This document shows positions 39,626 to 52,284 of a stretch of 64,000 nt of DNA, in pieces. The notes beneath the pieces were generated by a model. It was not told the origin of the DNA and made no database searches. It saw only the letters and a program-made list of their open reading frames with translations. The DNA comes from an uncultured Actinomycetota bacterium (GTDB lineage Bacteria > Actinomycetota > Actinomycetes > JACCUZ01). The stretch's first letter is position 1. Every line of letters starts with the position of its first letter. Both the position numbers and the translations under genes were made by a program. Where the stretch lies: NCBI GenBank assembly GCA_963807005.1, contig CAWDZK010000006.1, positions 558,875 through 622,874 on the forward strand. Direction: 5' to 3'.

Positions 39626-39705
39626 CGCTGCCGGCGCTGCGAGGACGGTTGCCTGCACGCCTGGCGGGACTACGCTCCGGCCTGGAGCAGAGCGGAGGCG
39701 GTTCG

Positions 39706-40425
39706 ATGCAGTCGCGCGCACCCGAGACCCCGCTGGTCGTGACGCCGGAGAGCTCGGAGCTGCCGGCACCCCGGGCGCCGACGCGGGACGACGCCGATCT
39801 CGTGAGCCGGCTGCGTGGGGGCGACGAGCGCGCTTTCGCCGACGTGGTCGGCTCCTGGTCCCCGATGATGCTGCGGGTGGCCCGGGGGCACCTGTCCACC
39901 GACGCCTCGTGCGAGGAGGTGGTGCAGGAGACGTGGATGGCCGTGGTCCGCGGGCTGCCGGCCTTCGAGGGCCGCTCGTCGCTGCGCACCTGGGTCTTCC
40001 GCATCCTCACGAACCTGGCGAAGACCCGTGGGGTCCGCGAGGCGCGCTCGGTGCCGATGTCATCCCTGGCGGCCGACCGCGACGACACGCCGACGGTCGA
40101 CCCGGATCGCTTCTGCGGCCCCGGCTACGACTACCCGGGGCACTGGACCCCGATCGGGAAGCCGACCCCGTGGCAGCCTGGTCCTGAGCAGGCGGTGGTC
40201 GCCGGCGAGACGCGCCAGCTGCTCTCGGCGGCGCTGACGGTGCTGCCGGACCGCCAGCGCACGGTGGTGACCCTGCGCGACGTGCACGGGCTGGACTCCG
40301 ACGAGGTCTGTCGCTTGCTCGACGTCAGCGCGGCCAACCAGAGGGTGCTGCTGCACCGCGGCCGGGCAAAGCTGCGCACGGTCCTGGAGGAGTACTACCG
40401 CTCACGCGAGGAGGCGACGTCGTGA
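39706..40425 (+). CDS. ECF-type sigma-70 factor
   Basis: ATG with GGAGGCGG RBS. ...ERAFADVVGSWSPMMLRVARGHL...VQETWMAVVRGLPAFEGRSSLRTWVFRILTNLA... region 4 LPDRQRTVVTLRDVHGLDSDEVCRLLDVSAANQRVLLHRGRAKLR. Confidence 0.85.
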   Translation: MQSRAPETPLVVTPESSELPAPRAPTRDDADLVSRLRGGDERAFADVVGSWSPMMLRVARGHLSTDASCEEVVQETWMAVVRGLPAFEGRSSLRTWVFRILTNLAKTRGVREARSVPMSSLAADRDDTPTVDPDRFCGPGYDYPGHWTPIGKPTPWQPGPEQAVVAGETRQLLSAALTVLPDRQRTVVTLRDVHGLDSDEVCRLLDVSAANQRVLLHRGRAKLRTVLEEYYRSREEATS

Positions 40426-40697
40426 CCGACGCCACGAATCCGGGTCTGGCAATCACCTGCCAGCAGCTGGTGGAGCTCATCACCGCCTATCTCGAGGACG
40501 ATCTGGACGAGGCCACCCGCACCGAGCTCGAGGCGCACCTCAGCCTGTGCCCGGGCTGCGAGACCTACCTCGACCAGATGAGGACCACCATCAGCGAGCT
40601 GGGCCATGTCCCGGTCGAGTCGCTCAGCGAGCAGGCCCAGTCGGATCTGCTGTCCGCCTTCCGCACGTTCACTGCGGGCACACCCGGCGCCGGTTGA
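40422..40697 (+). CDS. Zinc-binding anti-sigma factor (zf-HC2/RsrA-like, soluble)
   Basis: GTG overlapping the sigma stop. ITCQQLVELITAYLEDDLDEATRTELEAHLSLCPGCETYL, a C-x(25)-H-x3-C-x2-C ZAS motif. Confidence 0.75.
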   Translation: MTDATNPGLAITCQQLVELITAYLEDDLDEATRTELEAHLSLCPGCETYLDQMRTTISELGHVPVESLSEQAQSDLLSAFRTFTAGTPGAG

Positions 40698-40714
40698 GGC
40701 CGGGAGGAGACCCG

Positions 40715-41050
40715 GTGCTGGGCTGCCCGGAGCTCGTGGAGCTCGTCACCGAGTACGTCGAGGGGGCGCTGACGCCCGAACGGCACCATGAGGTGCACGA
40801 GCACCTGCTCGAGTGCGCGGACTGCCTGCGCTACCTCGGCCAGGTGGCGTTGACCTCGCAGCTCCTAGCGACGCTGCCGGCGCCGGAGCTGACGAGCGAG
40901 CTCGAGGCGCAGCTGGCCCGGGACTTCCGCACCGCGTCCGAGCGGCCCGGGCCGCCGAGGGTCTCGGCTCAGTTCTCCCGCAGGGACCGGAACAGGGCCA
41001 GCGCCTTCTGCCGGTCCCACTTGACGGATGACCCGGCCGGCGTCTGGTAG
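40715..41050 (+). CDS. Second zf-HC2 anti-sigma-like protein (tandem paralog); C-terminal tail overlaps convergent LCP gene
   Basis: GTG with GGGAGGAGA RBS. LGCPELVELVTEYVEGALTPERHHEVHEHLLECADCLRYL aligns position-by-position with the upstream anti-sigma. Confidence 0.55.
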   Translation: MLGCPELVELVTEYVEGALTPERHHEVHEHLLECADCLRYLGQVALTSQLLATLPAPELTSELEAQLARDFRTASERPGPPRVSAQFSRRDRNRASAFCRSHLTDDPAGVW

Positions 41051-42204
41051 TTGATGTCCGACACCGGCACCGTGACGCGCTTGCCGCCGCCACCGGCAAC
41101 CGCCCGCATCGTGAGCGCGAAGCGGACGAGCGACACCGGCCCGTCACCGTCGTCGATGGTCAGGGCGGTCGTCGCGGCGTCACCGAGGGACACGATCCGG
41201 AACGGGTTCAGCAACGTCGCCGGGCTCGCCGCCTCGTCGAAGACCGCGCCGAGGAACTCCTGCTGCCGCTGCACCCGGCCGAGGTCGCCCTTCGGGTCGA
41301 AGTACCGCGCCCGCACGTACGCCAGCGCGGTCGGGCCGTCCATCTCCTGACAGCCCTTGGCCACGTTCAGGCCGCTCTTGCGGTCGCGGATGCGCCGCTT
41401 CGGGCACAGCTCGACACCACCGACCGCGTCGGTCATGCCCACGAAGCCACCGAAGCCGACTTCGGCGTAGTGGTCGACGCGAAGTCCGGTGACGGTCTCG
41501 ACGGTCTGGGCGAGCAACGGCGCGCCACCGAACGCGTAGGCCGCGTTCAGCTTGTTCCGGCCGTGCCCGGGGATGGGCACGTAGGAGTCGCGCGGGAGGC
41601 TGACCAGAGTCGGCGCGCCGCTGGCGGGCCGGTGCAGCAGGATGATCGTGTCGGTCCGACGGCCTTCGACCTTGCCCAGGTGCAGCGCCTTCACCTGCTC
41701 GTCGCTGAGTCCTTCGCGGCTGTCCGAGCCGACGATCAGCCAGTTGGTGCCGGAGCCGGCGACCGGCCTGCCGTCGTAGTCGCGCAGGGCGTCGACCTTG
41801 TCGATCCGCGAGTAGAAGAACAGCATCGTCGCGAGCAGCAGAGCCAGCACCAGGACGAGCGCGAGCAGCCCGCGCCGCACCCATCGGACCGGCCGGATCG
41901 CGGGAACGCGGGGCCGGGGGAACGGCGGCGGCGCCGGCGCGGGACGGCGGGGCGCCTCGGGTGCGGAAGTGCGCCGGTTCGTCGGTCCCGCCGCGGCGCT
42001 CGGTCGGCCCGCTCCGGGGAGGACCTGGGTGCGCTCGGAGTCGGAGTCGGAGTCGGAGTCGGAGCCGGCCCGCGCGCCGGGGGCCGGGCGGCCGCCGTCG
42101 GCCGGCGGGCGTTCCGGCTGAGGACCCGGTCCGCGGTCGGACGACCCGCCGCGCGACCAGCCCTTCGGCCACTCGTGCGATCCCGCCACGCTGCTCCTCG
42201 TCAT
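40969..42204 (-). CDS. LCP-family (LytR-CpsA-Psr) cell-wall glycopolymer ligase with disordered N-terminus containing an (SD)n repeat
   Basis: TM anchor LLALVLVLALLLATMLFFY, then LCP core (WLIVGSDSREG...RTDTIILLH...LVSLPRDSYVPIPGHGRNKLNAAYAFGG...VDHYAEV). Start taken as ATG 42204; ORF extends to 42300. Confidence 0.8.
   Translation of the reverse strand: MTRSSVAGSHEWPKGWSRGGSSDRGPGPQPERPPADGGRPAPGARAGSDSDSDSDSERTQVLPGAGRPSAAAGPTNRRTSAPEAPRRPAPAPPPFPRPRVPAIRPVRWVRRGLLALVLVLALLLATMLFFYSRIDKVDALRDYDGRPVAGSGTNWLIVGSDSREGLSDEQVKALHLGKVEGRRTDTIILLHRPASGAPTLVSLPRDSYVPIPGHGRNKLNAAYAFGGAPLLAQTVETVTGLRVDHYAEVGFGGFVGMTDAVGGVELCPKRRIRDRKSGLNVAKGCQEMDGPTALAYVRARYFDPKGDLGRVQRQQEFLGAVFDEAASPATLLNPFRIVSLGDAATTALTIDDGDGPVSLVRFALTMRAVAGGGGKRVTVPVSDINYQTPAGSSVKWDRQKALALFRSLREN
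42037..42064. repeat. Hexanucleotide microsatellite (GGAGTC)4-5 inside the LCP N-terminal coding region (encodes SDSDSDSD on minus strand)
   Basis: Seen directly: ggagtcggagtcggagtcggagtcggag. Confidence 0.8.
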
Positions 42205-42260: not shown

Positions 42261-42806
42261 GTGACCGACCCTTCGTCCGACCGCCCCCCGGGTGACGCAC
42301 CTCACGCCGGGAAGCCCACCAGCGCCGCTCGCAGCACCCTCAGCCGGATCATGACGGTGCTGGACACCAACCTGCTCGGCTCGGTCCATGGCGGCGTGGT
42401 GATGAAGCTCGTGGACGACGTCGCCGGCGTGGTGGCACAGCGGCACTCCGGCGGCCCGGCGGTCACCGCGTCGATGGACGAGATGGCGTTCCTCTCGCCG
42501 GTCCGGGTGGGGGACCTGGTGCACGCCGCGGCGCAGGTCAACTGGGCCGGTCGGACGTCGATGGAGGTCGGCGTCCGGGTGGTCGCCGAGCCGTGGAACG
42601 AGGCCGGCGTGGAGCCGGTGCGGGTGGCCACGGCCTACCTCGTGTTCGTCGCCGTCGACGAGGCGGGCCGGCCGCGCGTGGTCCCGCCGGTGGAGCCGGA
42701 GACGACCGAGGACCGCAGGCGGTTCGCCGAGGCGGAGATCCGCCGGCAGCACCGGCTGGCCCGTCGGGAGGCCATCCTGCGCTCGCGGGAGTCCGGCGGG
42801 ACCTAG
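42261..42806 (+). CDS. Acyl-CoA thioesterase (hotdog fold, YciA-like)
   Basis: ...TLSRIMTVLDTNLLGSVHGGVVMKLVDDVAGVVAQRHSGGPAVTASMDEMAFLSPVRVGDLVHAAAQVNWAGRTSMEVGVRV. Start is GTG 42261 or ATG 42351. The stop shares a CTAG with the convergent gene. Confidence 0.75.
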   Translation: MTDPSSDRPPGDAPHAGKPTSAARSTLSRIMTVLDTNLLGSVHGGVVMKLVDDVAGVVAQRHSGGPAVTASMDEMAFLSPVRVGDLVHAAAQVNWAGRTSMEVGVRVVAEPWNEAGVEPVRVATAYLVFVAVDEAGRPRVVPPVEPETTEDRRRFAEAEIRRQHRLARREAILRSRESGGT

Positions 42807-45283
42807 GGCGACGGGGTGGCTGTGCTCCCGGACGGCGTCCCGGAGGGCGACGTGCTCGCGGACGGCGACGCGGACCCGGACGAGGTCGGTGTGCCGCCGG
42901 CCGGCGCGCCGGTGCTGCCTGCCCCCGACGTCCCGTCGGTCGCCGTGCCGGCCGGGCTCGGGGACCTGCTCGCAGCCGGCCCGGCCGGGGCCGGGCTCGA
43001 GGGTGCGGAGGACGCGGTGCCGGCCGTCGCCGACCCGCTGGGGGTCCCGGAACCCGTCGTGGTTGACGGTGAGACCGTCGCTGTCGGGGCGGGTGCCGGT
43101 GCCGCGTCGCCGTTCTCGGCCCGGACGATGTCGATGATCTGCTGCTCGTAGCCGGCGAGGGTCGACCGGATCTGGTCCAGCGGGACGTCGGTGATGGTCC
43201 GGCCGAAGGCCAGCACCTGCTGCCAGACGGCGGTGAGCGCAGCGGTGCCGGCCTCGCTGAGCGGGCCGTCCAGGGTGAGGACCAGCTGCTGGGCCAGCGA
43301 GTAGGCGACACACTGCACGCAGTTGTAGTTGACGGCGGCCGAGAGGTTCTGTGGCACGACCACATCGGCCTGGCCAAGGACCAGCACGACCTGGAAGCCG
43401 ACGGCGACCGCGGCGCAGCCGGTGCAGCTGGCGAACGCGTAGGCCTCGTTGGTGTTCAGGACGGTGCCGTCGTCGGCCCACACCAGGGCGAACGCGACGT
43501 CGTAGCGGGTGGTGCCGTCGGTGGTGTTGACGGCCAGCGCCTGGGTGTCGCCCGCCCCCGGAGCCTCCGGCCGGTCGAACGGGAACACCCAGGTGGGAGC
43601 GTCGGCCGGCGCGGCGGGAGCGCCGGGAGCCGCAGCCGGGGCGTCAGCCGCGCCCTGGGCAGCCGGCGGTGCCGACCCGGCCGGCACCAGGACCAGGGCC
43701 AGCTCCGGCTGGTCCGGTGGTGGCGGCTGCTCGTCGCTGGCCCACAGGGTCTGCGCCAACCCGCGCTGACCTTCGCGCAGCGACGGTGCGGCCGGACGCG
43801 GAGGTGCCAGGCGGTCTAGGACGGGGATCCGCTGGTACGCCGCCGCCGGCACGGCGTCGAACACGGTGCCGCGCTCGGTCGGCCGGATCGGCCGGTACTT
43901 CTGCTCACCCGGCCACCAGGCGTAGGCCAGACCGCCGAGCAGCGCGAGGGCAGCGACGACCGCGACCGCACGGCGACCGGGGCGTCCCGCGGTGCTCCGG
44001 CGTACCGAGCGGACGCTGCGACGGACCAGCCGCCCGAGCAGGTAGAGCATCGCCAGGACCGGCAGCGCGATCGCCAGGATCGAGACCAGTCGGACGCCGA
44101 CCGTGGTCCACGCGTGCGACGCCCACGCGACCGACAGCGCGTGCGACTGCGCACCCAGGCTCTCCCACGCGGTGCCGATCGCGCGGGGGAGGGCGACGAC
44201 CATCATCACCAACGAGAGGAGCAGCACGGGCACGACGACGAGCACCCAGACGGTGACGACGGCCCGGGCCCACCAGGTCAGTGGCGACGGTCGTCGCCAG
44301 TTCTGCGGGAGCAGACCGAGCAACGTCGGCTTGATGTGCGAGTAGAGGTCCGGTACGCCGGTCACGTCGGCGAGGATGTGGTAGCCGTCGAAGCGTACGA
44401 ACGGCGCCAGCTGCCGCAGCATCTGCAGCACCTGTGCGCCGATGACCAGCAGCAGCGCCTGCCAGTGCACGACCGCCCACACGCCGAACATCGCGAGGGC
44501 GAATACCGCGTTGAAGTACAGCCCACCCAGGTCGACCCGGACCCGGCCGCCTCGGCCGAGCCGGTAGCTGTCACTCACCTCGGTGTAGAACGCCGGCCAG
44601 ACCAGGTAGAGGCCGGCCCCCATCGCGCCGGGGGTCGCGCCGCCGTAGCGGCAGGCCGCCGCGTGACCGAACTCGTGGAAGCCCGCCGAGACCGCCGTGA
44701 TCGCGAAGACGAGCAGGAACAGGCCGGGCTGGGTGAACGCGTCCCTGGTGGCGGCCGCGAGGCCCTCCCGGAACAGCACCCAGCCCGCGACGGCCACGAA
44801 CGCGAGGGTGAACGGCACGACGACGGCCGGGTGGAAGAAGACGGCGAACGGTGCCGTGACCCGCCGGGTCACGGCCGGGTCGGACACGACGTACTTGAAC
44901 CTGACCGCGAGCAGCGGGTTGGCCTTGCGCACCTCGGGATCGCTGCCGTCGGGCCGCCGCAGGACGCCGAGCGGCCGGAGCCGGTCGTCCACGAGGGACC
45001 GCACCTGCTCGGCGGTGACCCCGCGGCCGAAGGACTCGCTCACGGCATCGGCGAGCTCGTCGTACGTGCGGTGGCCGTCGATCTCCTCGAGAACGACGTA
45101 GAGCAGCCGGGTGAGCTGGACGGTCTGGCCGTCCGAGCGCCGGACCAGTGCCGGCGGCTCCTTGTAGCCGGAGCCCGCGAGGCTGCCGATCAGCTCGACA
45201 CCGGCCGCCCGAGCGGGCACCTCCGGGCTGGAGGTGCCCGCTCGGGTCGCGGACTGGGCCGGGGCGTCCGGCGTCGCGGTCAC
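42803..45283 (-). CDS. Multi-domain membrane protein: N-terminal PqqD-like (RiPP-recognition-element-like) domain + M50/site-2-protease-type intramembrane zinc metalloprotease + extracytoplasmic Cys-containing domain + Ser/Thr/Pro/Gly-rich tail
   Basis: PqqD-like region: PALVRRSDGQTVQLTRLLYVVLEEIDGHRTYDELADAVSESFGRGVTAEQVRSLVDDRLRPLGVL. M50 region: HExxH in a TM helix (AGFHEFGHAAACRYGG) and a later FDGYHILADV Asp ligand. Extracytoplasmic part: CTGC / NYNCVQC. Tail of about 110 aa of S/T/P/G/A. Start GTG 45283 (alternative GTG about 75 nt downstream). Confidence 0.6.
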   Translation of the reverse strand: MTATPDAPAQSATRAGTSSPEVPARAAGVELIGSLAGSGYKEPPALVRRSDGQTVQLTRLLYVVLEEIDGHRTYDELADAVSESFGRGVTAEQVRSLVDDRLRPLGVLRRPDGSDPEVRKANPLLAVRFKYVVSDPAVTRRVTAPFAVFFHPAVVVPFTLAFVAVAGWVLFREGLAAATRDAFTQPGLFLLVFAITAVSAGFHEFGHAAACRYGGATPGAMGAGLYLVWPAFYTEVSDSYRLGRGGRVRVDLGGLYFNAVFALAMFGVWAVVHWQALLLVIGAQVLQMLRQLAPFVRFDGYHILADVTGVPDLYSHIKPTLLGLLPQNWRRPSPLTWWARAVVTVWVLVVVPVLLLSLVMMVVALPRAIGTAWESLGAQSHALSVAWASHAWTTVGVRLVSILAIALPVLAMLYLLGRLVRRSVRSVRRSTAGRPGRRAVAVVAALALLGGLAYAWWPGEQKYRPIRPTERGTVFDAVPAAAYQRIPVLDRLAPPRPAAPSLREGQRGLAQTLWASDEQPPPPDQPELALVLVPAGSAPPAAQGAADAPAAAPGAPAAPADAPTWVFPFDRPEAPGAGDTQALAVNTTDGTTRYDVAFALVWADDGTVLNTNEAYAFASCTGCAAVAVGFQVVLVLGQADVVVPQNLSAAVNYNCVQCVAYSLAQQLVLTLDGPLSEAGTAALTAVWQQVLAFGRTITDVPLDQIRSTLAGYEQQIIDIVRAENGDAAPAPAPTATVSPSTTTGSGTPSGSATAGTASSAPSSPAPAGPAASRSPSPAGTATDGTSGAGSTGAPAGGTPTSSGSASPSASTSPSGTPSGSTATPSP

Positions 45284-45297
45284 GTCGGGTAGGGGTG

Positions 45298-46059
45298 CTA
45301 CTGGCCGGCGGTGGCGGTCGATCCGCTGCCGGAGTCGGCCGGTACCTCGTCGCCCTGGCTGATGTCGGACGTCTGGTCCGCGGTGGCGTCCGCCGACACG
45401 TCGTCGAGGTGCTGGTTGATGATCGCGTCCTGCTGGGCGACCGCTGTGGCGGCCGAGCCGATCGAGCCGACGTTCGCCGATGCGGCCGCATCGATCGGTG
45501 CCGCCACGTTGGCGTTCGCGGCCACCGCACCGGCGATCGGGGCAGCCACGTCGGCGTCCAGGTTGAGGTCGACGTTCACGTCGAGCAGGTTGCCGTCCAG
45601 CATCGAGGCCGGGTCGGCGGTGACGGCCGCCGGGTCGGCGGGTGCCGTGCCGTCGGTCGGCGTGCTGCCGTCGGTCGGCGTGCTGCCGTCGGCCGGGGCG
45701 CTGCCGGTCCCGTCCGTCGGGGTGTCGACGACGCTGTCGCCCTGTCCGATGGTGCTGTCCTGCGGGGCGTTGGCGGTGGCCTCGCCGGAGATCCCCTGGT
45801 CGATCTGCACGCCCTGGTCGGCCAGCGCCTGGGCGGTCGAGCCGGCGGACAGCACGTTGGCGCCCACAGCGGCGTTGATCGGCGCAGCGATGTTGGCGTT
45901 CGCCGCGACCGCGAGGTCGATCGGCGCGGCCACGTCCAGCCCGAGGTCCAGGTCCGCGTTGAGGTCGAGCAGCGAGATCACCTCCTTGGGAGGCAGCGCG
46001 GTGCCGGCCTCGGCGGCCAGCTCGGCGTCCGACATCGGGGTGGGGTCGTTCTCGGTCAT
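45298..46059 (-). CDS. Acidic (Asp/Ala/Asn-rich) protein composed of two ~80-aa tandem repeats; no signal peptide; unknown family
   Basis: ATG 46059 with GGGAGGA RBS. Repeat 1: LLDLNADLDLGLDVAAPIDLAVAANANIAAPINAAVGANVLSAGSTAQALADQG... Repeat 2: LLDVNVDLNLDADVAAPIAGAVAANANVAAPIDAAASANVGSIGSAATAVAQQD... Stop lies 14 nt from the next gene. Confidence 0.6.
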   Translation of the reverse strand: MTENDPTPMSDAELAAEAGTALPPKEVISLLDLNADLDLGLDVAAPIDLAVAANANIAAPINAAVGANVLSAGSTAQALADQGVQIDQGISGEATANAPQDSTIGQGDSVVDTPTDGTGSAPADGSTPTDGSTPTDGTAPADPAAVTADPASMLDGNLLDVNVDLNLDADVAAPIAGAVAANANVAAPIDAAASANVGSIGSAATAVAQQDAIINQHLDDVSADATADQTSDISQGDEVPADSGSGSTATAGQ

Positions 46060-46220
46060 GTGCCGTCCTCCCGCACGCGCGCTGAGCGTGCTTGGTCGTG
46101 CGTCCTCGAGGACCGGCAGATCGCTGTACCCCCGTGGACGCGAGGCAGGCACTCGCAGCGAGGGCCGGCCCGGTCGATGTGTCTCGGGCGGCTGGTTGCC
46201 CGCTGGGGGAGGGCTGAAAC

Positions 46221-47729
46221 TCAGCTGCAGACGTGGTCTGCGGCGGTGCGCACGCCGGAGCCGGCCGGTGCGGCCGCGCTGACCCGTACCGGCTTGGTGC
46301 CGGAGTAGGACGTGCCGATGACCACCTGCATGGTGCGGCCCAGCCCGGCCACCGGCACCAGCGCCGCGCCCGGCAGCGCCGCCGCGACCGTCTTGATGCT
46401 CTCGGTGTACCGGGCGTCGAACCGCACGGAGGTCCGAGCCACTCCGGTGCGGCTCCAGTTGGCGGCCGGACCGGCCATGCTGAAGCCCTCGGCAGCCAGG
46501 TCCGCGCTGGCCCGTGAACCGAGGCCCGGGGTGCCGCCGCCGTTGTAGACCTGCAGGTGCACCCCGGACGGGGGGATGGTCGGCCGCTGGGCACGGCCCG
46601 GACCGCGCTGCGGGCGTGCGGTGTCGTCGCGCATCGCCGCGAACACCGCGGTCGCGGCCCGGTCGTCCCACAGGGCGACGGAACCTGCGCGCGCGGAGCG
46701 GTACGACGGGTCGGCGACCGGCACCGTCCGGAACCTGATGTCGCTGCCCGACACGTGCCGGAGCCGGGTGCCGAGCCGGACCAGCTCGTCCTCGGTGAGG
46801 CCGGGGTCGGCGCGTACGGCGGACAGCGCGGCGTCGAGGAACCGGACGAGTGCCCGTGGGTCCAGCAGCACGTCGCGACTGGTGGCCCGGTCGACCATGG
46901 CGGCGAGGAACCGCTGCTGCCGCTCCACCCGGCCGAGGTCCGCGCGCGCGTCGAGGTGCCGGGCCCGGACGTAGGCCAGGGCTGTCTCGCCGTCGAGGTG
47001 GCTGACGCCGGCCGGTAGCTTCAGGCCCGCCTTGCGGTCGCGCATCCGGCTGGTGCTGCAGACGTCCACCCCGCCGACGGCGTCGACCAGCCGGACGAAC
47101 CCGAGGAAGTCGACCTCCAGGTAGTGGTCGACCCGCACGCCGGTGGTCCGCTCGATGGTCGCGACCGTCAGGGCCGGACCGCCGAACGCGTACGCCGCGT
47201 TGAGCTTGTTCCGGCGTTCGGGGACCCGGTCGCCGCCAGTGGAGACGTGCGCGGGGATCGTGACGTAGGAGTCCCGCGGCAGGCTCACCGCTTCGACAGT
47301 GCCGTGCTGCGCGGAGACGTGGACCAGCAGCATGGTGTCGGCGCGCCGGCCGGCGGCCGTCTGGGTGGTGCCGACGTGCAGCCGCTTCATGTCCGCGCGC
47401 GACATGCCGGTGCGACCGTCGGAGCCGACGAGAAGGAACGTGGTCGAGCCGGCGGCGGAGGCGGGCGGGCGGTCGGTGAGCCCGGCGAAGGCGTCGACCC
47501 GGTCGATCTTGCGGGTCGACCACGACAGCAGTGCGTAGCCGGAGGCGCTGGCGGCAAGCACCCCGAAGGCGGTCGCGGCGGCAACGAGGACGAGCAGGCG
47601 ACGGCCGATCCGGCTGAGCCGGGTCGGTGGCCGGCGACCCACCCGCGGGGGCCGCGGAGCGGCGGCGCTGCGCCCGCGCGGGTTCAGCTGCGGCGGGAGG
47701 GCCGGCTGGACGCCGGTCGGCGTGGACAT
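46221..47729 (-). CDS. LCP-family (LytR-CpsA-Psr) glycopolymer ligase with C-terminal LytR_C-like domain
   Basis: ATG 47729. TM anchor RIGRRLLVLVAAATAFGVLAA, then LCP core (FLLVGSDGR...ADTMLLVH...SLPRDSYVTIPAH...NKLNAAYAFGG...VDHYLEVDF) and C-terminal VHLQVYNGGGTPGLGSRASADLAAEGF. Confidence 0.8.
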   Translation of the reverse strand: MSTPTGVQPALPPQLNPRGRSAAAPRPPRVGRRPPTRLSRIGRRLLVLVAAATAFGVLAASASGYALLSWSTRKIDRVDAFAGLTDRPPASAAGSTTFLLVGSDGRTGMSRADMKRLHVGTTQTAAGRRADTMLLVHVSAQHGTVEAVSLPRDSYVTIPAHVSTGGDRVPERRNKLNAAYAFGGPALTVATIERTTGVRVDHYLEVDFLGFVRLVDAVGGVDVCSTSRMRDRKAGLKLPAGVSHLDGETALAYVRARHLDARADLGRVERQQRFLAAMVDRATSRDVLLDPRALVRFLDAALSAVRADPGLTEDELVRLGTRLRHVSGSDIRFRTVPVADPSYRSARAGSVALWDDRAATAVFAAMRDDTARPQRGPGRAQRPTIPPSGVHLQVYNGGGTPGLGSRASADLAAEGFSMAGPAANWSRTGVARTSVRFDARYTESIKTVAAALPGAALVPVAGLGRTMQVVIGTSYSGTKPVRVSAAAPAGSGVRTAADHVCS

Positions 47730-47877: not shown

Positions 47878-48915
47878 ATGGCCGACCTCGACCACGTCCC
47901 CGAACCCGGCCCCGCGGGCGGGACCGCCGGGTCCGCGCGCGGCGCCTGGCCGGGCGTCTCGGTCGTCATGCCGGTGCTGGACGAGGAGCGCCACCTGCGA
48001 GCGGCGGTCGCCACGGTGCTCGGCCAGGACTACCCCGGCCCGCTCGAGCTGGTGCTGGCGCTCGGCCCCTCGCGGGACCGCACCGACGAGATCGCTGCCG
48101 CCCTGGCGTCGGCCGACGGGCGGGTGCAGACGGTGCGCAACCCGACCGGGGCCACCGGCGCCGGGCTCAACCTCGCGATCGCCGCCGCCCGGCACGACGT
48201 GGTGGTGCGGCTCGACGGGCACGCACTGGTGCCGGCCGACTACGTGCGGGTAGCGGTCGAGACGCTCGGTCGGACGGGTGCCGACAACGTGGGCGGGTTG
48301 ATGGCCGCCGAGGGGGTCACCGACTTCGAGTGCGCGGTCGCGGCCGCGATGACGAGCCCGATCGGTGTCGGGCAGGCGAGCTTCCACACCGGCGGCCAGG
48401 AAGGCCCGGCGCCCACCGTGTACCTCGGGGCGTTCCGGCGGGAGGTCCTCGACCGGCTCGGCGGCTACGACGAGACCTTCCTGCGGGCCCAGGACTGGGA
48501 GCTGAACCACCGCATCCGCGAGAGTGGCGGCCTGGTCTGGTTCACGCCGGCCATGCGGGTGTCCTACCGGCCCCGGTCGACCCTGCGGGCCCTGGCGAAG
48601 CAGTACCGCGACTACGGCCGTTGGCGCCGGGTCGTCATGCGCCAGCACGAGGGCACCGTCAACGTGCGCTACCTCGCGCCCCCGGCGGCGGTGCTCGGCG
48701 TCGCCGCCGGCACGGTGGCCGGCGCGATCGGGTGGCGACCGGCTTTCGTGGCACCCCTGGGGTATGCCGCCGCTGTGCTCGTCGGGTCCGCCGTGGTGGG
48801 CCGAGGGCTGCCACCCCGCTCGCGCGCCTGGCTTCCCGTGGTGCTGGCGACGATGCACGGTGCGTGGGGGATCGGCTTCCTCACCTCCCCACGGTCCCTC
48901 CGCACCGGCGGCTGA
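47878..48915 (+). CDS. Family 2 glycosyltransferase with C-terminal membrane segments
   Basis: VSVVMPVLDEERHLRAAVATVLGQDYPGPLELVLALGPSRDRTDEI...RLDGHALVPADY... Confidence 0.8.
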   Translation: MADLDHVPEPGPAGGTAGSARGAWPGVSVVMPVLDEERHLRAAVATVLGQDYPGPLELVLALGPSRDRTDEIAAALASADGRVQTVRNPTGATGAGLNLAIAAARHDVVVRLDGHALVPADYVRVAVETLGRTGADNVGGLMAAEGVTDFECAVAAAMTSPIGVGQASFHTGGQEGPAPTVYLGAFRREVLDRLGGYDETFLRAQDWELNHRIRESGGLVWFTPAMRVSYRPRSTLRALAKQYRDYGRWRRVVMRQHEGTVNVRYLAPPAAVLGVAAGTVAGAIGWRPAFVAPLGYAAAVLVGSAVVGRGLPPRSRAWLPVVLATMHGAWGIGFLTSPRSLRTGG

Positions 48916-50111: not shown

Positions 50112-50900
50112 TCAACCGGCTTCCGGCTCCCGGCGGAGCGCAGCGACCGCGTCCGGGACGTCGTTGAGCACCAGCACGTCCACGCCGGCGGCCACGAGGT
50201 CCCGCGCCCGCGCGGGCTCCGGGCACCAGGCCAGCACCCGCAGCCCGGCCCGGTGCGCGACCTCGACGCTCTCGCCGGCCGGCCGGTGCACCGGACCGGC
50301 CTCCACCCGGTTGGGTCCGAACGAGCCGTGATGCAGGCCCACGAGGTCGAGGCCGAACCCGGCGGCCGCGGCGACCAGGTGCCGCAGCGGGAAGTCGATC
50401 CAGCCGAGCAGGCCGTACGCCGCGCCGGGCACGGCGTGCCGGAGCCGGAGCAGAGCGGCGGGGTCGAACGACGTGACCAGCACCGGGCGGCGACCGGACT
50501 CCTCAGCCAGCAGCGGGGCGAGCAGTACGTCGGTACGGCGGGCGACCGGGTCGGTCGCATCCTCCAGCACCGTCTTGACGTCGAGGTCGACGGGCACTCC
50601 GGGCGGCAGTGCGTCGAGCAGATCTGCCACCGTGGCGAGACCGGCCGCGACGGCGTCCGCCTGCGAGACGTTCACGAGGAAGCGGCCGTCGGGAAGGGCC
50701 GGGTCGTGGCTCACCACGAGCGCGTCGTCGCGAGTGCGGGCGACGTCCACCTCCACGCCGTCGGCGCCCGCTGACAGCGCGGCCAGCATCGAGGCGACGG
50801 TGTTCTCCGGGTGGCCGGTCACGGCGCCCTTGCCGAGCCCGCGGTGACCGATCAGGGTAGGTCGGCCGACGAGGAAGCGATCGACCTCAGTCGTGCTCAT
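50112..50900 (-). CDS. Glycerophosphodiester phosphodiesterase (GDPD family)
   Basis: TLIGHRGLGKGAVTGHPENTVASMLAALSAGADGVEVDVARTRDDALVVSHD... Confidence 0.85.
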   Translation of the reverse strand: MSTTEVDRFLVGRPTLIGHRGLGKGAVTGHPENTVASMLAALSAGADGVEVDVARTRDDALVVSHDPALPDGRFLVNVSQADAVAAGLATVADLLDALPPGVPVDLDVKTVLEDATDPVARRTDVLLAPLLAEESGRRPVLVTSFDPAALLRLRHAVPGAAYGLLGWIDFPLRHLVAAAAGFGLDLVGLHHGSFGPNRVEAGPVHRPAGESVEVAHRAGLRVLAWCPEPARARDLVAAGVDVLVLNDVPDAVAALRREPEAG

Positions 50901-52284
50901 CGACGTCGCCGGTGGTCACCCGGCGGTGTCCTGCGAGCAGTCGGTCGCGCTCCGCGACCACGTCCGACACGGCCTGCTCGAACTTCCGCGAGCTGTCGCC
51001 GGGGCCGAGGTCGCCGAAGTAGTGCGTCCGGGTCCGGGCCCGGTCCTCGCGGCGCTTGTCGCTCTCCAGCGCGTCGGTCATCGCCTCGGCGAAACCGTCG
51101 ATGGTGGACGAGTCGATGATGTCGGCACCCTCGGTGAGCGGGCTGTCGCTGGCGAGGAGCTCGCGGTCGTCCCGCCGGTCGGTCAGGAAGATCGGCGCCT
51201 CGGCCCGGAGGTACAGGAAGTCGAGCGTGACGCTGGAGATGTCACCGACCAACGCGTCGCAGCCGCCGAACATCGCCAGGATGTTGCCGTCCGTGCGGGC
51301 GACGTGGCCGGCCTGCGGGTCACGCTGGTTGGCCTTCTCGACCATCGACATGATCTTGCGGTGCGCGGACCGGACGCCGGGGTTAGCCGAGCCTGCCACC
51401 CGGGGGTGCGGCTTGTAGACCACCCGCAGGTCGGGGAGCGCGAGCAGAGACTGCACGATCCGGATGCCGTACCGGTCCAGCGACGTCCAGTTGTTCGACT
51501 CGCTCTCGCCCTCCCACGTCGGTGCGTACATGACGGTGCGACGGGTCGACTCCGGCAGCTCGGCCGTGAAGTCGAGATCGAGCTGCGGCCGGCCGACCGG
51601 CACGACCTTGCTGTCGTCGAACCCGATGAGCGCCTCGCGGTACCTCTCGACGGCGACCGGTCCGGCCACGAACACCCGGTCATAGGCCTTGACCTGGTTG
51701 GAGAAGCTGGACAGCTTGTCGCTCTCGCCGTGGTTGACGTGCACGTGCAGCATCCGCGGGTTGTTCATCGACTGGAAGTTGCGCTGGCTGTTGTTGACGT
51801 AGATCCCGACCTTGAACTCGCAGGCGTCGTAGAGGTTCATCAGGTCGAGGAACGTCGTGAGGCAGACGGCCGGCAGCGTGGTGCGGTCCTGGAGGTCGCG
51901 CATGGCCCGGAGGTCCCGCAGGACCAGCACCACCTTGTGCTTGGAGGAGAGCCGCTCCAGCACCGGCAGCCACTGGTCGAGCTGGTAGATCCGGTCCGGG
52001 CCGTCGCCGTAGTAGACGACCACCTCGGCGTCGACCGGGATGCGGGCGGCGGCCATCTGCGGCACGAACGAGTCCGGGGCCAGCCGCAGCGCCAGCTCTG
52101 CCTGCGCCCGCCGGGCCCGCCAGCGCACCGCGCGCACGGTCCGCCGCGCCGCGGCTCGGGTGACGCTGGCCTCGGGCCTGTGGGGCACGTCGGGTCCTCC
52201 TGGGGCTGGCTGCGATGGGGGGTCTGCGGGGCGGACGCCGTACGCCCACCGCCTTCGGGGACGATACCGTCCGGGGGATCGCAC
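50887..52284 (-). CDS. CDP-glycerol glycerophosphotransferase (TagB/TagF family)
   Basis: ...HVHVNHGESDKLSSFSNQVKAYDRVFVAGPVAVERY...VMYAPTWEG...VVYKPHPR..., the TagF-like catalytic core. N-terminal start uncertain. Confidence 0.8.
   Translation of the reverse strand: MRSPGRYRPRRRWAYGVRPADPPSQPAPGGPDVPHRPEASVTRAAARRTVRAVRWRARRAQAELALRLAPDSFVPQMAAARIPVDAEVVVYYGDGPDRIYQLDQWLPVLERLSSKHKVVLVLRDLRAMRDLQDRTTLPAVCLTTFLDLMNLYDACEFKVGIYVNNSQRNFQSMNNPRMLHVHVNHGESDKLSSFSNQVKAYDRVFVAGPVAVERYREALIGFDDSKVVPVGRPQLDLDFTAELPESTRRTVMYAPTWEGESESNNWTSLDRYGIRIVQSLLALPDLRVVYKPHPRVAGSANPGVRSAHRKIMSMVEKANQRDPQAGHVARTDGNILAMFGGCDALVGDISSVTLDFLYLRAEAPIFLTDRRDDRELLASDSPLTEGADIIDSSTIDGFAEAMTDALESDKRREDRARTRTHYFGDLGPGDSSRKFEQAVSDVVAERDRLLAGHRRVTTGDVDEHD

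What the first reader, a model, noticed from the sequence alone, without database searches (positions are those of the whole stretch)
45298..46059. Acidic protein built from two ~80-aa Ala/Asn/Asp repeats with unknown fold
The 253-aa product has no signal peptide and is essentially two copies of one motif: LD-N-DL-LGLDVAAPI--AVAANAN(I/V)AAPI(N/D)AA--ANV-S-GS-A. The duplication is also visible at nucleotide level (about 45400-45600 versus 45780-45980). I cannot place it in a known family. Its tight coupling to the PqqD-M50 gene suggests it may be that protein's substrate or partner, for example a cleaved precursor or scaffold.
Basis: seen in the sequence. Interest (0 to 1): 0.6.

Follow-up and report, generated by a model that had tools for sequence, protein, structure and literature searches.

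The report
Oversized precursor of a membrane protease
This very acidic 253-residue protein is a real, widely conserved gene that looks like an enlarged, doubled version of a family of short leader-bearing peptides, all encoded just upstream of a membrane metalloprotease that carries a leader-peptide-binding domain; the system is undescribed in every library and paper searched here, and what its product does is unknown.

Summary
Window 45298-46059 (-) encodes a 253-aa protein with 38 acidic residues, 1 basic and no aromatic ones. It has no signal peptide and is built from two ~80-aa repeats, each holding two 14-aa sub-repeats. It matches no Pfam or NCBIfam family, and AlphaFold2 gives no confident fold.

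The downstream gene (42803-45283, -) is a fusion of four parts: a cytoplasmic PqqD-like RRE domain, a site-2-protease-like core, one extra membrane helix, and an outside domain with two CxxC motifs.

The two genes are adjacent in 85 of 86 loci across Actinomycetota. Nothing else nearby is conserved with them.

The decisive evidence is comparative. Relatives of the protease are preceded by arrays of one to four ~65-75-aa peptides. Each has the same N-terminal motif (EL-x7-LP-x-K/R) plus a single copy of the repeat core. A profile built from 139 such peptides finds only this gene in the window (E 2.8e-19).

So the protein is most likely a leader-bearing, double-core precursor cleaved by its RRE-protease. 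Cleavage itself, any export, and the product's role are not shown. I class it as a new variant of the RRE-protease/precursor logic known from daptides.

The parts
45298..46059 (-). Gene for the 253-aa acidic two-repeat protein, proposed to be a double-core precursor
   Evidence: ORF and translation. GC3 0.95. >3541 homologues. Profile of 139 short peptides hits only this ORF in the window, E 2.8e-19.
46066..46072 (-). Shine-Dalgarno-like GGGAGGA, 6 nt upstream of the ATG
   Evidence: Read directly from the sequence.
45973..46023 (-). Leader motif ELAAEAGTALPPKEVIS (residues 13-29), of the form EL-x7-LP-x-[KR]-[EA]-[VLA]-x-S. The conserved N-terminal region spans about residues 8-34.
   Evidence: Near-invariant in the family. 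Kept in divergent members that have a long insert after it. The regex matches only acidic-gene N-termini and two Streptomyces small ORFs in 2.2 M six-frame residues. It aligns to the N-terminus of the short peptides.
45742..45975 (-). Repeat A (residues 29-106): strand-like LLDLNADLDLGLD, two 14-aa AAPI/ANAN sub-repeats, then a Gln-ladder segment (Q82, Q88, Q100, Q106 invariant)
   Evidence: HMM domain hits at E 1e-10.
45601..45741 (-). Variable Thr/Gly/Asp/Pro-rich linker (residues 107-153), with an 18-nt tandem repeat coding DGSTPT
   Evidence: Alignment gaps and variability. Tandem D2. Linker greatly expanded in some members.
45355..45600 (-). Repeat B (residues 154-235), same layout as A (Q210, Q216, Q229, Q235 invariant). 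Most orthologues end at Q235.
   Evidence: HMM domain hit at E 3e-6.
45301..45354 (-). 18-residue C-terminal tail (GDEVPADSGSGSTATAGQ), absent from most orthologues
   Evidence: Alignment A1.
42803..45283 (-). 826-aa RRE / site-2-protease-like fusion gene (GTG start, 14 nt after the acidic gene's stop)
   Evidence: Immediately downstream in 85/86 loci.
44954..45211 (-). N-terminal RRE (PqqD-like winged-helix) domain, residues 25-110, cytoplasmic
   Evidence: AF2 pLDDT >90 with b-b-b-a-a-a order. Foldseek top hits 5sxy PqqD (prob 0.99, TM 0.64) and 5v1u TbiB1 with leader (prob 0.92).
43910..44878 (-). Membrane core, residues 136-458: six helices of the protease plus a seventh. HEFGH at residues 203-207 (nt 44663-44677). 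P294-x4-D299-G300 (nt 44384-44404).
   Evidence: Hydropathy and positive-inside count. Motifs invariant in 98 orthologues. NCBIfam daptide_HExxH E 3.8e-28 and YydH/LiaK E 5.9e-10, both below cut-off.
43106..43909 (-). Extracytoplasmic domain, residues 459-726, with four invariant Cys (C620, C623, C655, C658)
   Evidence: Topology. Invariant columns. The homologous domain is a separate ORF in 44 short-peptide loci, with signal-peptide-like N-termini read by eye where the start is visible, and is fused in 4 long-type loci.
42806..43105 (-). Pro/Thr/Ser-rich low-complexity tail, residues 727-826
   Evidence: Alignment A3. AF2 pLDDT <50.

Best explanation
The 253-aa acidic protein is the dedicated, leader-bearing substrate of the protease encoded 14 nt downstream.

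**Shown.**
- The two genes form a conserved two-gene unit.
- The protease has a cytoplasmic RRE (leader-peptide-binding fold) fused to a site-2-protease-like membrane core, and an outside CxxC domain.
- The acidic protein's N-terminus carries a motif (EL-x7-LP-x-K/R...S) that is shared with short peptides encoded upstream of homologous proteases.
- Its two repeats are homologous to the single core of those ~65-75-aa peptides.

**Inferred.**
- The RRE binds residues ~8-34 at the inner face of the membrane.
- The metalloprotease cuts the leader off, and possibly also cuts at the second repeat. This releases a ~200-aa polyanionic product with two cores, or two core fragments.
- There are no tailoring enzymes, so proteolysis would be the only maturation step.
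- The product probably acts outside the cell, or together with the outside CxxC domain. This is the weakest step.

In evolutionary terms the long protein is a derived form of the short precursors. One 14-aa sub-repeat was duplicated, then the whole core was duplicated with a linker between the copies. In the long-type loci examined here the outside CxxC domain is fused to the protease rather than encoded as a separate protein.
For: **Pairing.**
- The protease homologue lies immediately downstream on the same strand in 81/82 loci. The one exception is a 1.4-kb contig.
- It is also present in 4/4 divergent members, including Mycolicibacterium litorale and a 507-aa variant.
- The median intergenic gap is 10 nt.
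- No other neighbour is conserved.

**RRE.** The AF2 domain has pLDDT >90 and b3-a3 order. The best PDB fold matches are PqqD and a leader-bound lasso RRE.

**Protease.** HExxH and P-x4-DG are invariant. These are the hallmarks of the S2P clan as listed in PMC13252029. The nearest named families are the daptide and YydH/LiaK leader peptidases. The daptide enzyme MpaP is described as an RRE fused N-terminally to an intramembrane S2P that removes the leader (PMC10036551).

**Shared leader, different cargo.**
- Streptomyces plasmid relatives of the protease (42% identity) are preceded by 70-86-aa ORFs with the same motif spacing but Gly/Cys-rich cores.
- The regex has zero background hits in 2.2 M residues.

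**Homology to short precursors.**
- In 35 of 43 metagenome loci with at least 1.5 kb upstream there are one to four tandem short peptides of the form leader plus one core.
- hhalign of the acidic family against one such peptide gives probability 98.7% and E 2.2e-16.
- An independent HMM of 139 peptides hits only this ORF among 823 window ORFs, E 2.8e-19.
- Divergent family members keep the leader while inserting ~150-300 residues before the repeats. This marks the leader as a separate module.
Against: - No binding or cleavage has been observed.
- An HMM of the acidic-family leader alone does not find the Streptomyces small ORFs significantly. The regex was written after those ORFs had been seen.
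- Leader-RRE covariation is not enriched.
- A single BLASTP of the protein against one short peptide is weak (E 0.5). The homology rests on profiles.
- Known S2P substrates are mostly membrane-embedded or hydrophobic, whereas this one is soluble and carries about -37 net charge.
- The core is far more conserved than is usual for RiPP cores. No modifying enzyme or transporter is co-conserved.
- The protease scores below the curated cut-offs of every named family and only marginally on Pfam M50.
Confidence: 0.7

Rival explanations
1. The acidic protein is a non-cleaved partner of the protease. It docks on the RRE and gates, activates or inhibits proteolysis of some other substrate. It would then be a regulatory subunit or scaffold rather than a precursor.
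For: The strict pairing and the RRE fold fit a stable partner as well as a substrate. The core is extremely conserved, as expected for a protein with a fixed interaction surface. A paper title cited in PMC12710340 reports peptidase activation by a leader-bound RRE in another system.
Against: Homologous proteases are served by arrays of one to four paralogous short peptides with the same leader. Other relatives are served by peptides with unrelated Cys-rich cores. That pattern is the one seen for precursors, not for a fixed subunit. No second candidate substrate is co-conserved.
Confidence: 0.12
2. The product is a self-assembling, extracellular structural protein, either amyloid-like or a repeat fibre. 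It would exist in short one-core and long two-core versions, as chaplins do. The protease and the outside CxxC domain would serve only its maturation and placement. This is a reading of the product's role and is compatible with the best explanation.
For: - The family has short single-core peptides in tandem copies and a long double-core form.
- The core is rich in Ala/Asn/Val/Gln, with invariant Gln spacing and no aromatic residues.
- The monomer has no confident fold, apart from long beta-hairpins at pLDDT ~65.
- The core is highly conserved across orders, unlike antagonistic peptides.
- A secreted or fused outside domain is an obligatory part of the system.
- Thr/Pro/Gly-rich linkers resemble those of secreted actinobacterial proteins (own knowledge).
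Against: There is no signal peptide, no sortase signal and no transporter gene. There is no sequence relation to chaplins or any amyloid family. AF2 predicts no solenoid. All of this is analogy and nothing was tested.
Confidence: 0.2
3. It is an independent cell-envelope ('peptidoglycan-binding') protein that merely shares an operon with the protease. The window's wall-polymer gene block would explain why it sits there.
For: NCBI names many family members 'peptidoglycan-binding protein'. In this window the pair sits between two LCP genes and next to teichoic-acid-type genes.
Against: No peptidoglycan-binding domain, or any other domain, is detected. LCP genes are nearby in only 13/82 loci, whereas the protease is there in 81/82. 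The shared leader and the homology to short peptides are left unexplained.
Confidence: 0.04
4. It is not a real gene, only a low-complexity ORF in GC-rich DNA.
For: Long shadow ORFs overlap it on the other strand, and its composition is strongly biased.
Against: GC3 is 0.95, against 0.89 and 0.74 for the two shadow ORFs, whose position-by-position GC is not coding-like. There are thousands of homologues with near-invariant residues and a variable linker. Synteny is conserved and there is a strong ribosome-binding site.
Confidence: 0.01

Closest known systems
Daptide precursors (MpaA) and their RRE-fused intramembrane leader peptidase MpaP/DapP (PMC10036551)
   Same: The protease has the same N-terminal layout, an RRE fused to an S2P-type membrane metalloprotease. 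It is the best-scoring named family (NF041824, E 3.8e-28). The substrates are encoded directly upstream, often in several copies, and carry an acidic N-terminal motif that starts with EL and ends with P (ELExMEAP versus EL-x7-LP).
   Different: - The score of 98.7 bits is far below the 300-bit cut-off.
- None of the daptide tailoring genes (DapB/C/D/M) or ABC transporters is co-conserved.
- The cores are not aliphatic and do not end in Thr.
- The substrate here is 253 aa with two cores.
- The protease has an extra helix and a large outside CxxC domain.
Epipeptide system EpeX/EpeP (YydF/YydH) of Bacillus subtilis (PMC10885120)
   Same: A membrane M50-type protease processes a ribosomal peptide encoded in the same operon, and it has been proposed to handle export too. 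NF058609 matches at E 5.9e-10. JGI names the orthologues 'putative peptide zinc metalloprotease protein'.
   Different: The match is below cut-off (39 versus 225 bits). There is no radical-SAM epimerase and no ABC transporter. The peptide is unrelated. Whether EpeP carries an RRE was not examined here.
SpoIVFB and pro-sigma-K (own knowledge; not tested here)
   Same: An S2P removes a short N-terminal extension from a protein-sized, non-transmembrane substrate. Its activity is governed from the other side of the membrane.
   Different: There is no sequence relation. SpoIVFB uses a CBS domain rather than an RRE. Its substrate is a sigma factor.
Short and long chaplins of Streptomyces (own knowledge; analogy of architecture only)
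   Same: A family with short one-domain peptides in several paralogous copies and long proteins carrying two copies of the same domain.
   Different: Chaplins have Sec signal peptides, a hydrophobic DUF320 domain and sortase signals. None of these is present here.
TMcin leader peptidase TmcP (PMC13252029)
   Same: An S2P-clan enzyme with HExxH and a distal Asp/Pro removes a leader peptide within a RiPP operon.
   Different: TmcP has four helices, belongs to DUF3267, and acts on a membrane-inserted precursor. No RRE is mentioned in the section read.

Membership tests
RiPP-type precursor peptide (leader + core, served by an RRE protein) | Encoded next to a protein with an RRE domain | tested here: met
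   RRE fold in the downstream protein. Adjacent in 85/86 loci.
RiPP-type precursor peptide (leader + core, served by an RRE protein) | A conserved N-terminal leader shared among substrates of related enzymes, while the cores differ | tested here: met
   The EL-x7-LP-x-[KR] motif is found on the acidic proteins, on short NANVAAP-core peptides and on Cys-rich Streptomyces peptides. Caveat: the leader-only HMM is not significant.
RiPP-type precursor peptide (leader + core, served by an RRE protein) | Small size (usually under ~110 aa) | tested here: not met
   This protein is 253 aa and the family median is 233 aa. Its short relatives of 57-81 aa do meet the criterion.
RiPP-type precursor peptide (leader + core, served by an RRE protein) | Post-translational modification of the core by co-encoded tailoring enzymes | tested here: not met
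   No enzyme other than the protease is co-conserved, in either the 82 genome loci or the 80 metagenome loci.
RiPP-type precursor peptide (leader + core, served by an RRE protein) | Leader actually bound by the RRE and removed by the protease | not testable with these tools
This needs biochemistry.
Daptide system | Protease reaches the NF041824 equivalog cut-off (300 bits) | tested here: not met
   98.7 bits.
Daptide system | Precursor ends in an invariant Thr, and DapB/C/D/M genes are present | tested here: not met
   The family ends in Gln. No such genes are co-conserved.
Site-2 protease clan (MEROPS MM / M50-like) | HExxH inside a membrane helix | tested here: met
   H203-E204-F-G-H207 lies in helix 186-213 and is invariant in 98 orthologues.
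Site-2 protease clan (MEROPS MM / M50-like) | Distal Pro...Asp-Gly motif supplying the third zinc ligand | tested here: met
   P294-x4-D299-G300 is invariant. The hallmark is as described in PMC13252029. Spatial proximity to HExxH could not be checked because no coordinates were returned.
Site-2 protease clan (MEROPS MM / M50-like) | Match to Pfam PF02163 at gathering score, or to a solved S2P | tested here: not met
RRE / PqqD-like domain | Three-stranded sheet followed by three helices (winged helix-turn-helix) | tested here: met
   E30-34, E45-48, E54-57, H59-67, H74-85 and H91-102 at pLDDT >90. Top PDB matches are 5sxy and 5v1u, although their E-values of 0.36-0.96 are weak for the 826-aa query.
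RRE / PqqD-like domain | Match to Pfam PqqD (PF05402) | tested here: not met
   No hit at E <= 1 in the window protein or in 24 orthologues. The only sequence-level hint is ApyI RRE at E 0.055.
   AF2 with 121 sequences gives mean pLDDT 53.4 and pTM 0.24. The AAPI/ANAN segments are below 50 and only two long hairpins reach ~65.
Chaplins / known functional amyloids | DUF320 or another amyloid family domain, plus a Sec signal peptide | tested here: not met
   No Pfam hit and no hydrophobic N-terminus.

The most novel reading that the evidence does not exclude
The RRE-protease and its outside CxxC domain, whether fused or secreted, form a self-contained machine. It matures leader-bearing but otherwise unmodified Ala/Asn/Gln-rich peptides and places them outside the cell without the Sec or Tat pathways or an ABC transporter. 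The peptides come in short one-core and long two-core forms, as chaplins do, and would build a conserved extracellular or cell-wall-associated assembly in Actinomycetota and related soil bacteria. That would be both a new family of structural peptides and a new export route for a polyanionic protein of about 200 residues.
Probability: 0.15. Interest if true: 0.85.

Novelty: new variant of a known kind. Interest (0 to 1): 0.62.

Why it matters
- **It defines a large, unnamed system.** The parts are one or more leader-bearing peptides, an RRE-fused site-2-type protease, and an outside CxxC domain. The long form alone was found at 510 or more places in a collection holding one genome per species. 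Short forms occur in many soil metagenomes and in a MAG labelled Chloroflexota.
- **It stretches the RiPP idea in three ways.** The precursor is protein-sized with two cores. The only maturation enzyme is the leader peptidase. The core is conserved rather than hypervariable, which hints at a housekeeping or structural role rather than an antibiotic one.
- **It makes an open question testable.** How intramembrane proteases pick soluble substrates could be studied here, because the recognition module (the RRE) and the recognition sequence (EL-x7-LP-x-K/R) are both explicit.
- **Limits on the claim.** No paper in the searched library describes it. That library does not cover subscription journals.

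Tried and rejected
**Family searches on the acidic protein.** Pfam, NCBIfam, PADLOC and PDB sequence searches found nothing.

**Structure of the acidic protein.** AlphaFold2 with a 121-sequence alignment gave a low-confidence model. I therefore ran no fold search on it and rejected the solenoid and coiled-coil ideas.

**Co-folding leader and protease.** I built a chimeric alignment of 32 paired sequences (leader and repeat A, a linker, then the RRE and protease core).

**Leader-RRE covariation.** Mutual information over 67 pairs showed no enrichment. Phylogenetic noise and near-invariant leaders probably explain this.

**Leader-only HMM.** Run against all ORFs of the two Streptomyces plasmid loci, it was not significant. 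The shared motif is therefore supported only by a regex written after I had seen the sequences, and by the much stronger whole-peptide profiles.

**Other conserved neighbours.** LCP genes, ECF sigma and anti-sigma factors, a thioesterase, transporters and modifying enzymes were all checked, and none is conserved with the pair.

**RNA elements and signals.** There are no Rfam families in the window, and no sigma-70 promoter or intrinsic terminator matches around the pair.

**Plasmids.**
- The acidic protein has no match there, with the caveat that the low-complexity filter was on.
- The protease search gave the two informative Streptomyces plasmid loci.

**The NCBI name.** The label 'peptidoglycan-binding protein' found no support in any scan.
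Full report
**1. The observation**

It starts at an ATG with GGGAGGA 6 nt upstream. Its codon-position GC is 0.72/0.54/0.95, in a window of 72.8% GC.

The two halves align at 56% identity over 96 columns, E 3e-7. At DNA level a 39-42-nt unit occurs four times, at 45471, 45513, 45855 and 45897. So each ~80-aa repeat contains two 14-aa sub-repeats of the form AN(V/I)AAPI(D/N)AAVxAN, and the large repeats lie 384 nt apart. The linker between them carries an 18-nt tandem coding DGSTPT.

The protein has 38 acidic residues, one Lys, no Arg, and no aromatic residue or Cys. No stretch is hydrophobic enough for a signal peptide or membrane helix.

**2. A real, large and unnamed family**

A search of 5.8 billion proteins gives more than 3541 hits, with the best ~74% identical. 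All are 'hypothetical' or carry the unexplained NCBI name 'peptidoglycan-binding protein'. A profile search of 1.84 billion cluster representatives gives 498. A scan of the genome-contig collection (one genome per species) finds at least 510 matching stretches. The 80 loci kept include Arthrobacter, Nocardioides, Blastococcus, Phycicoccus and Planosporangium; Micromonospora and Mycolicibacterium members came from other searches.

The alignment shows three zones:
- a conserved N-terminus, PLSxxELAAExxTALPxKEVxSLLDLN;
- two near-invariant cores;
- a variable Thr/Gly/Asp/Pro-rich linker.

Family medians are 38 acidic, 2 basic and 0 aromatic residues. Pfam, NCBIfam, PADLOC and PDB sequences give nothing. 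AlphaFold2 with 121 sequences gives mean pLDDT 53 and pTM 0.24. The most conserved segments score below 50, and only two long hairpins reach ~65. No solenoid or coiled coil is predicted.

**3. The neighbour**

The gene 14 nt downstream (42803-45283, minus strand, 826 aa) has no Pfam hit. It does match NCBIfam daptide_HExxH (E 3.8e-28, 98.7 bits against a cut-off of 300) and the YydH/LiaK epipeptide protease (E 5.9e-10).

AlphaFold2 with 98 sequences gives a confident N-terminal domain, residues 25-110 at pLDDT >90. Its order is three strands then three helices. The two best fold matches in the PDB are PqqD (5sxy, probability 0.99, TM 0.64) and the lasso-peptide RRE TbiB1 bound to its leader (5v1u, probability 0.92).

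HEFGH (residues 203-207) and P294-x4-D299-G300 sit in membrane helices and are invariant in 98 orthologues. These are the S2P-clan hallmarks as listed in PMC13252029.

Hydropathy and the positive-inside count put the RRE in the cytoplasm. Six core helices follow, then a strongly basic loop (417-436), a seventh helix, and residues 459-826 outside the membrane. The outside part has four invariant Cys in two CxxC motifs and a Pro/Thr/Ser-rich tail.

By sequence, though, the protein is only a distant relative of both Pfam families.

**4. The pairing**

The protease homologue lies immediately downstream on the same strand in 81 of 82 loci. The exception is a 1.4-kb contig that ends 80 nt after the acidic gene. 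The median gap is 10 nt.

Clustering of all neighbouring ORFs shows nothing else conserved. The next cluster occurs in 21 loci, those sampled being Arthrobacter. LCP genes are near in only 13 loci, and the ECF sigma/anti-sigma pair in only 2.

Four divergent members were looked up separately: a 507-aa variant, Mycolicibacterium litorale and two others. All four have the protease next door.

**5. The leader is a separate module**

Divergent members such as P0250 and P0288 keep L(S/T)PAELEAxxxEALPER at the N-terminus. They then insert about 150-300 residues before the two repeats. Others greatly expand the linker between the repeats.

**6. The same leader appears on other cargo**

A protein search of plasmids with the protease found 42%-identical relatives, matching the RRE and core only, on two Streptomyces plasmids.

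Upstream of these lie small ORFs:
- two of 86 and 75 aa, reading M(T/S)AVNFEELNxLAGELLPERAVLSAF... followed by Gly-rich, Cys-containing tails;
- one of 70 aa, reading ...QLDAETAELLPGREALG...

The spacing EL-x7-LP-x-[KR]-[EA]-[VLA]-x-S is identical to that of the acidic family. That regex, scanned over 2.2 million six-frame residues from all 89 sequences held, hits only acidic-gene N-termini and the two Streptomyces ORFs.

Two caveats apply. I wrote the regex after seeing those ORFs. A leader-only HMM does not reach significance on them.

**7. The decisive result: short single-core relatives**

A metagenome scan seeded with the Streptomyces protease returned 80 loci. In 35 of the 43 loci with at least 1.5 kb upstream, the protease is preceded by one to four tandem ORFs (29 of them have three or four), with 57-81 aa among the 139 distinct peptides collected.

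Their consensus is MAEKKEKKELSREELEALAGEELPEREAMSLINANVAAPVNAAVAANVLSDNSVAYANAEQTADITQSN. That is the same leader plus one copy of the acidic protein's repeat core.

- hhalign of the acidic family against one such peptide gives probability 98.7%, E 2.2e-16 and 56% identity over 62 columns. The 22-residue gap is where the acidic protein has its extra sub-repeat.
- An HMM built only from 139 distinct short peptides, searched against all 823 six-frame ORFs of the window, finds only this gene (E 2.8e-19). It gives separate hits to the leader, to repeat A (E 1e-10) and to repeat B (E 3e-6).
- A single BLASTP pair is weak (E 0.5), so the claim rests on profiles.
- Some short peptides read SLLDLN, exactly as the long form does.
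- The short peptides also match no Pfam or NCBIfam family.
- One of them is present in an NCBI MAG labelled Chloroflexi/Chloroflexota.

**8. The third component**

In the short-peptide loci, the homologue of the outside CxxC domain is a separate gene. It lies after the protease, or divergently upstream. Where the start is visible, its N-terminus looks like a signal peptide (read by eye, not tested), for example MKRRLLILLLAALVSTGLSAARPTLATA|DNAAIAVNTKD.

It is separate in 44 loci. It is fused in the 4 loci that carry the long acidic type. This independently supports the outside location and shows the domain belongs to the system. A lipoprotein-like gene follows in at least 14 short-type loci but in none of the long-type loci. 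No modifying enzyme or transporter is co-conserved.

**9. Mechanism**

*Shown:*
- a conserved unit made of a leader-bearing protein and an RRE-protease;
- the RRE fold;
- the catalytic motifs;
- the membrane topology;
- the shared leader;
- homology of the repeats to short peptide cores.

*Inferred by analogy:*
- The analogy is with the daptide enzyme MpaP, described as an RRE-dependent intramembrane leader peptidase (PMC10036551), and with EpeP (PMC10885120).
- The RRE would bind residues ~8-34 at the inner membrane face, and the metalloprotease would remove the leader.
- Daptide leaders are cut right after the Pro that ends ELExMEAP. A cut near ALP|xKE is therefore a reasonable guess, but it is untested.
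- From my own knowledge, SpoIVFB's removal of the pro-sequence of pro-sigma-K shows that an S2P can process a protein-sized, non-transmembrane substrate.

*Where the product goes is open:*
- The obligatory outside CxxC component and the secretion-style linkers favour an extracellular role.
- The lack of any signal peptide or transporter argues for caution. The outside domain could instead be a sensor that gates cytoplasmic cleavage.

**10. What it is compared with known systems**

It works like an RRE-guided leader-peptidase/precursor pair, but it is not a daptide or an epipeptide system. Scores are below cut-off, there are no tailoring genes, and the cores differ.

It also departs from the usual RiPP definition in three ways. 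The precursor is 253 aa with two cores. Nothing but proteolysis is encoded. The core is conserved rather than variable.

The split into short single-core and long double-core forms recalls short and long chaplins (own knowledge). There is no sequence or signal-peptide similarity to them.

**11. Verdict**

- I rate it a new variant of a known kind, with interest 0.62.
- Confidence that the protein is the protease's leader-bearing substrate is 0.7.
- Confidence in any particular fate or role of the product is low.

Noticed in passing
window 46221-47729 (-), 40969-42189 (-), 47878-48915 (+), 50112-50900 (-), ~50887-52188 (-) and onward to ~56000: The pair sits inside a block of wall-polymer (teichoic-acid-type) genes. 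These are two LCP ligase genes flanking it, a GT2 glycosyltransferase, GDPD, a TagF-like glycerophosphotransferase, a nucleotidyltransferase, Fe-ADH, an ABC-2 exporter pair and a CDP-alcohol phosphatidyltransferase (gene calls). The block is not conserved with the pair: LCP genes are nearby in 13/82 loci.
   Followed up: partly
window 39649-40425 (+), 40422-40697 (+), ~40714-41031 (+): An ECF sigma factor is followed by two consecutive zf-HC2 anti-sigma-like ORFs. They are present only in the window's contig copy (L001) and the closest relative (L003).
   Followed up: partly
window 42351-42806 (+): A 4HBT thioesterase gene converges on the protease gene and overlaps its stop codon by 4 nt.
   Followed up: no
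L098 336, L101 1763, L102 1802, L105 1945, L127 1865, L133 1179, L139 1955, L145 1406, L147 1771-1935, L153 271: Many short-peptide arrays begin with a different small ORF. It has the same EL-x7-LP-x-R leader but a Pro/Asp-rich tail with no NANVAAP core, for example ...LPDREAMSLVTPMDDPFLPLLPSEQDVWTNDPVRND. This may be a second class of substrate.
   Followed up: no
L131 1302-1700, L094 ~1080, L168 2046-2297 and about 17 loci in all: A small basic ORF lies upstream of the arrays. It carries a core-like motif (DVNAV(I/V)xANVNEPGS...SSKQ) but no leader. It could be a partner or an immunity-like protein, or simply an artefact of ORF calling.
   Followed up: no
L147 5438-6178 and at least 14 other short-type loci: A lipoprotein-like ~246-aa gene (MRRLVPLLVLAALAGCGG...) follows the secreted CxxC-domain gene. 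It is absent from all long-type loci.
   Followed up: partly
L087 2548-2775 and 4446-4706; L089-L091: Streptomyces plasmids and three metagenome contigs carry pairs of leader-bearing peptides with Gly-rich spacers and two-Cys cores (...TCxTQSTSPALVLGLPxGxQQITQICTPSTVTH) upstream of a shorter RRE-protease. These are another unnamed peptide family that uses the same leader.
   Followed up: partly
family-wide: NCBI annotates many members as 'peptidoglycan-binding protein'. No scan run here gives any basis for that name.
   Followed up: partly
P0252, P0254, P0448, P0465, P0481: Some family members have greatly expanded linkers made of DxxGNxxGTL-type repeats or coiled-coil-like inserts, with faint DUF3659 or FlaC-like hits. 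The two cores therefore tolerate very different spacing.
   Followed up: no
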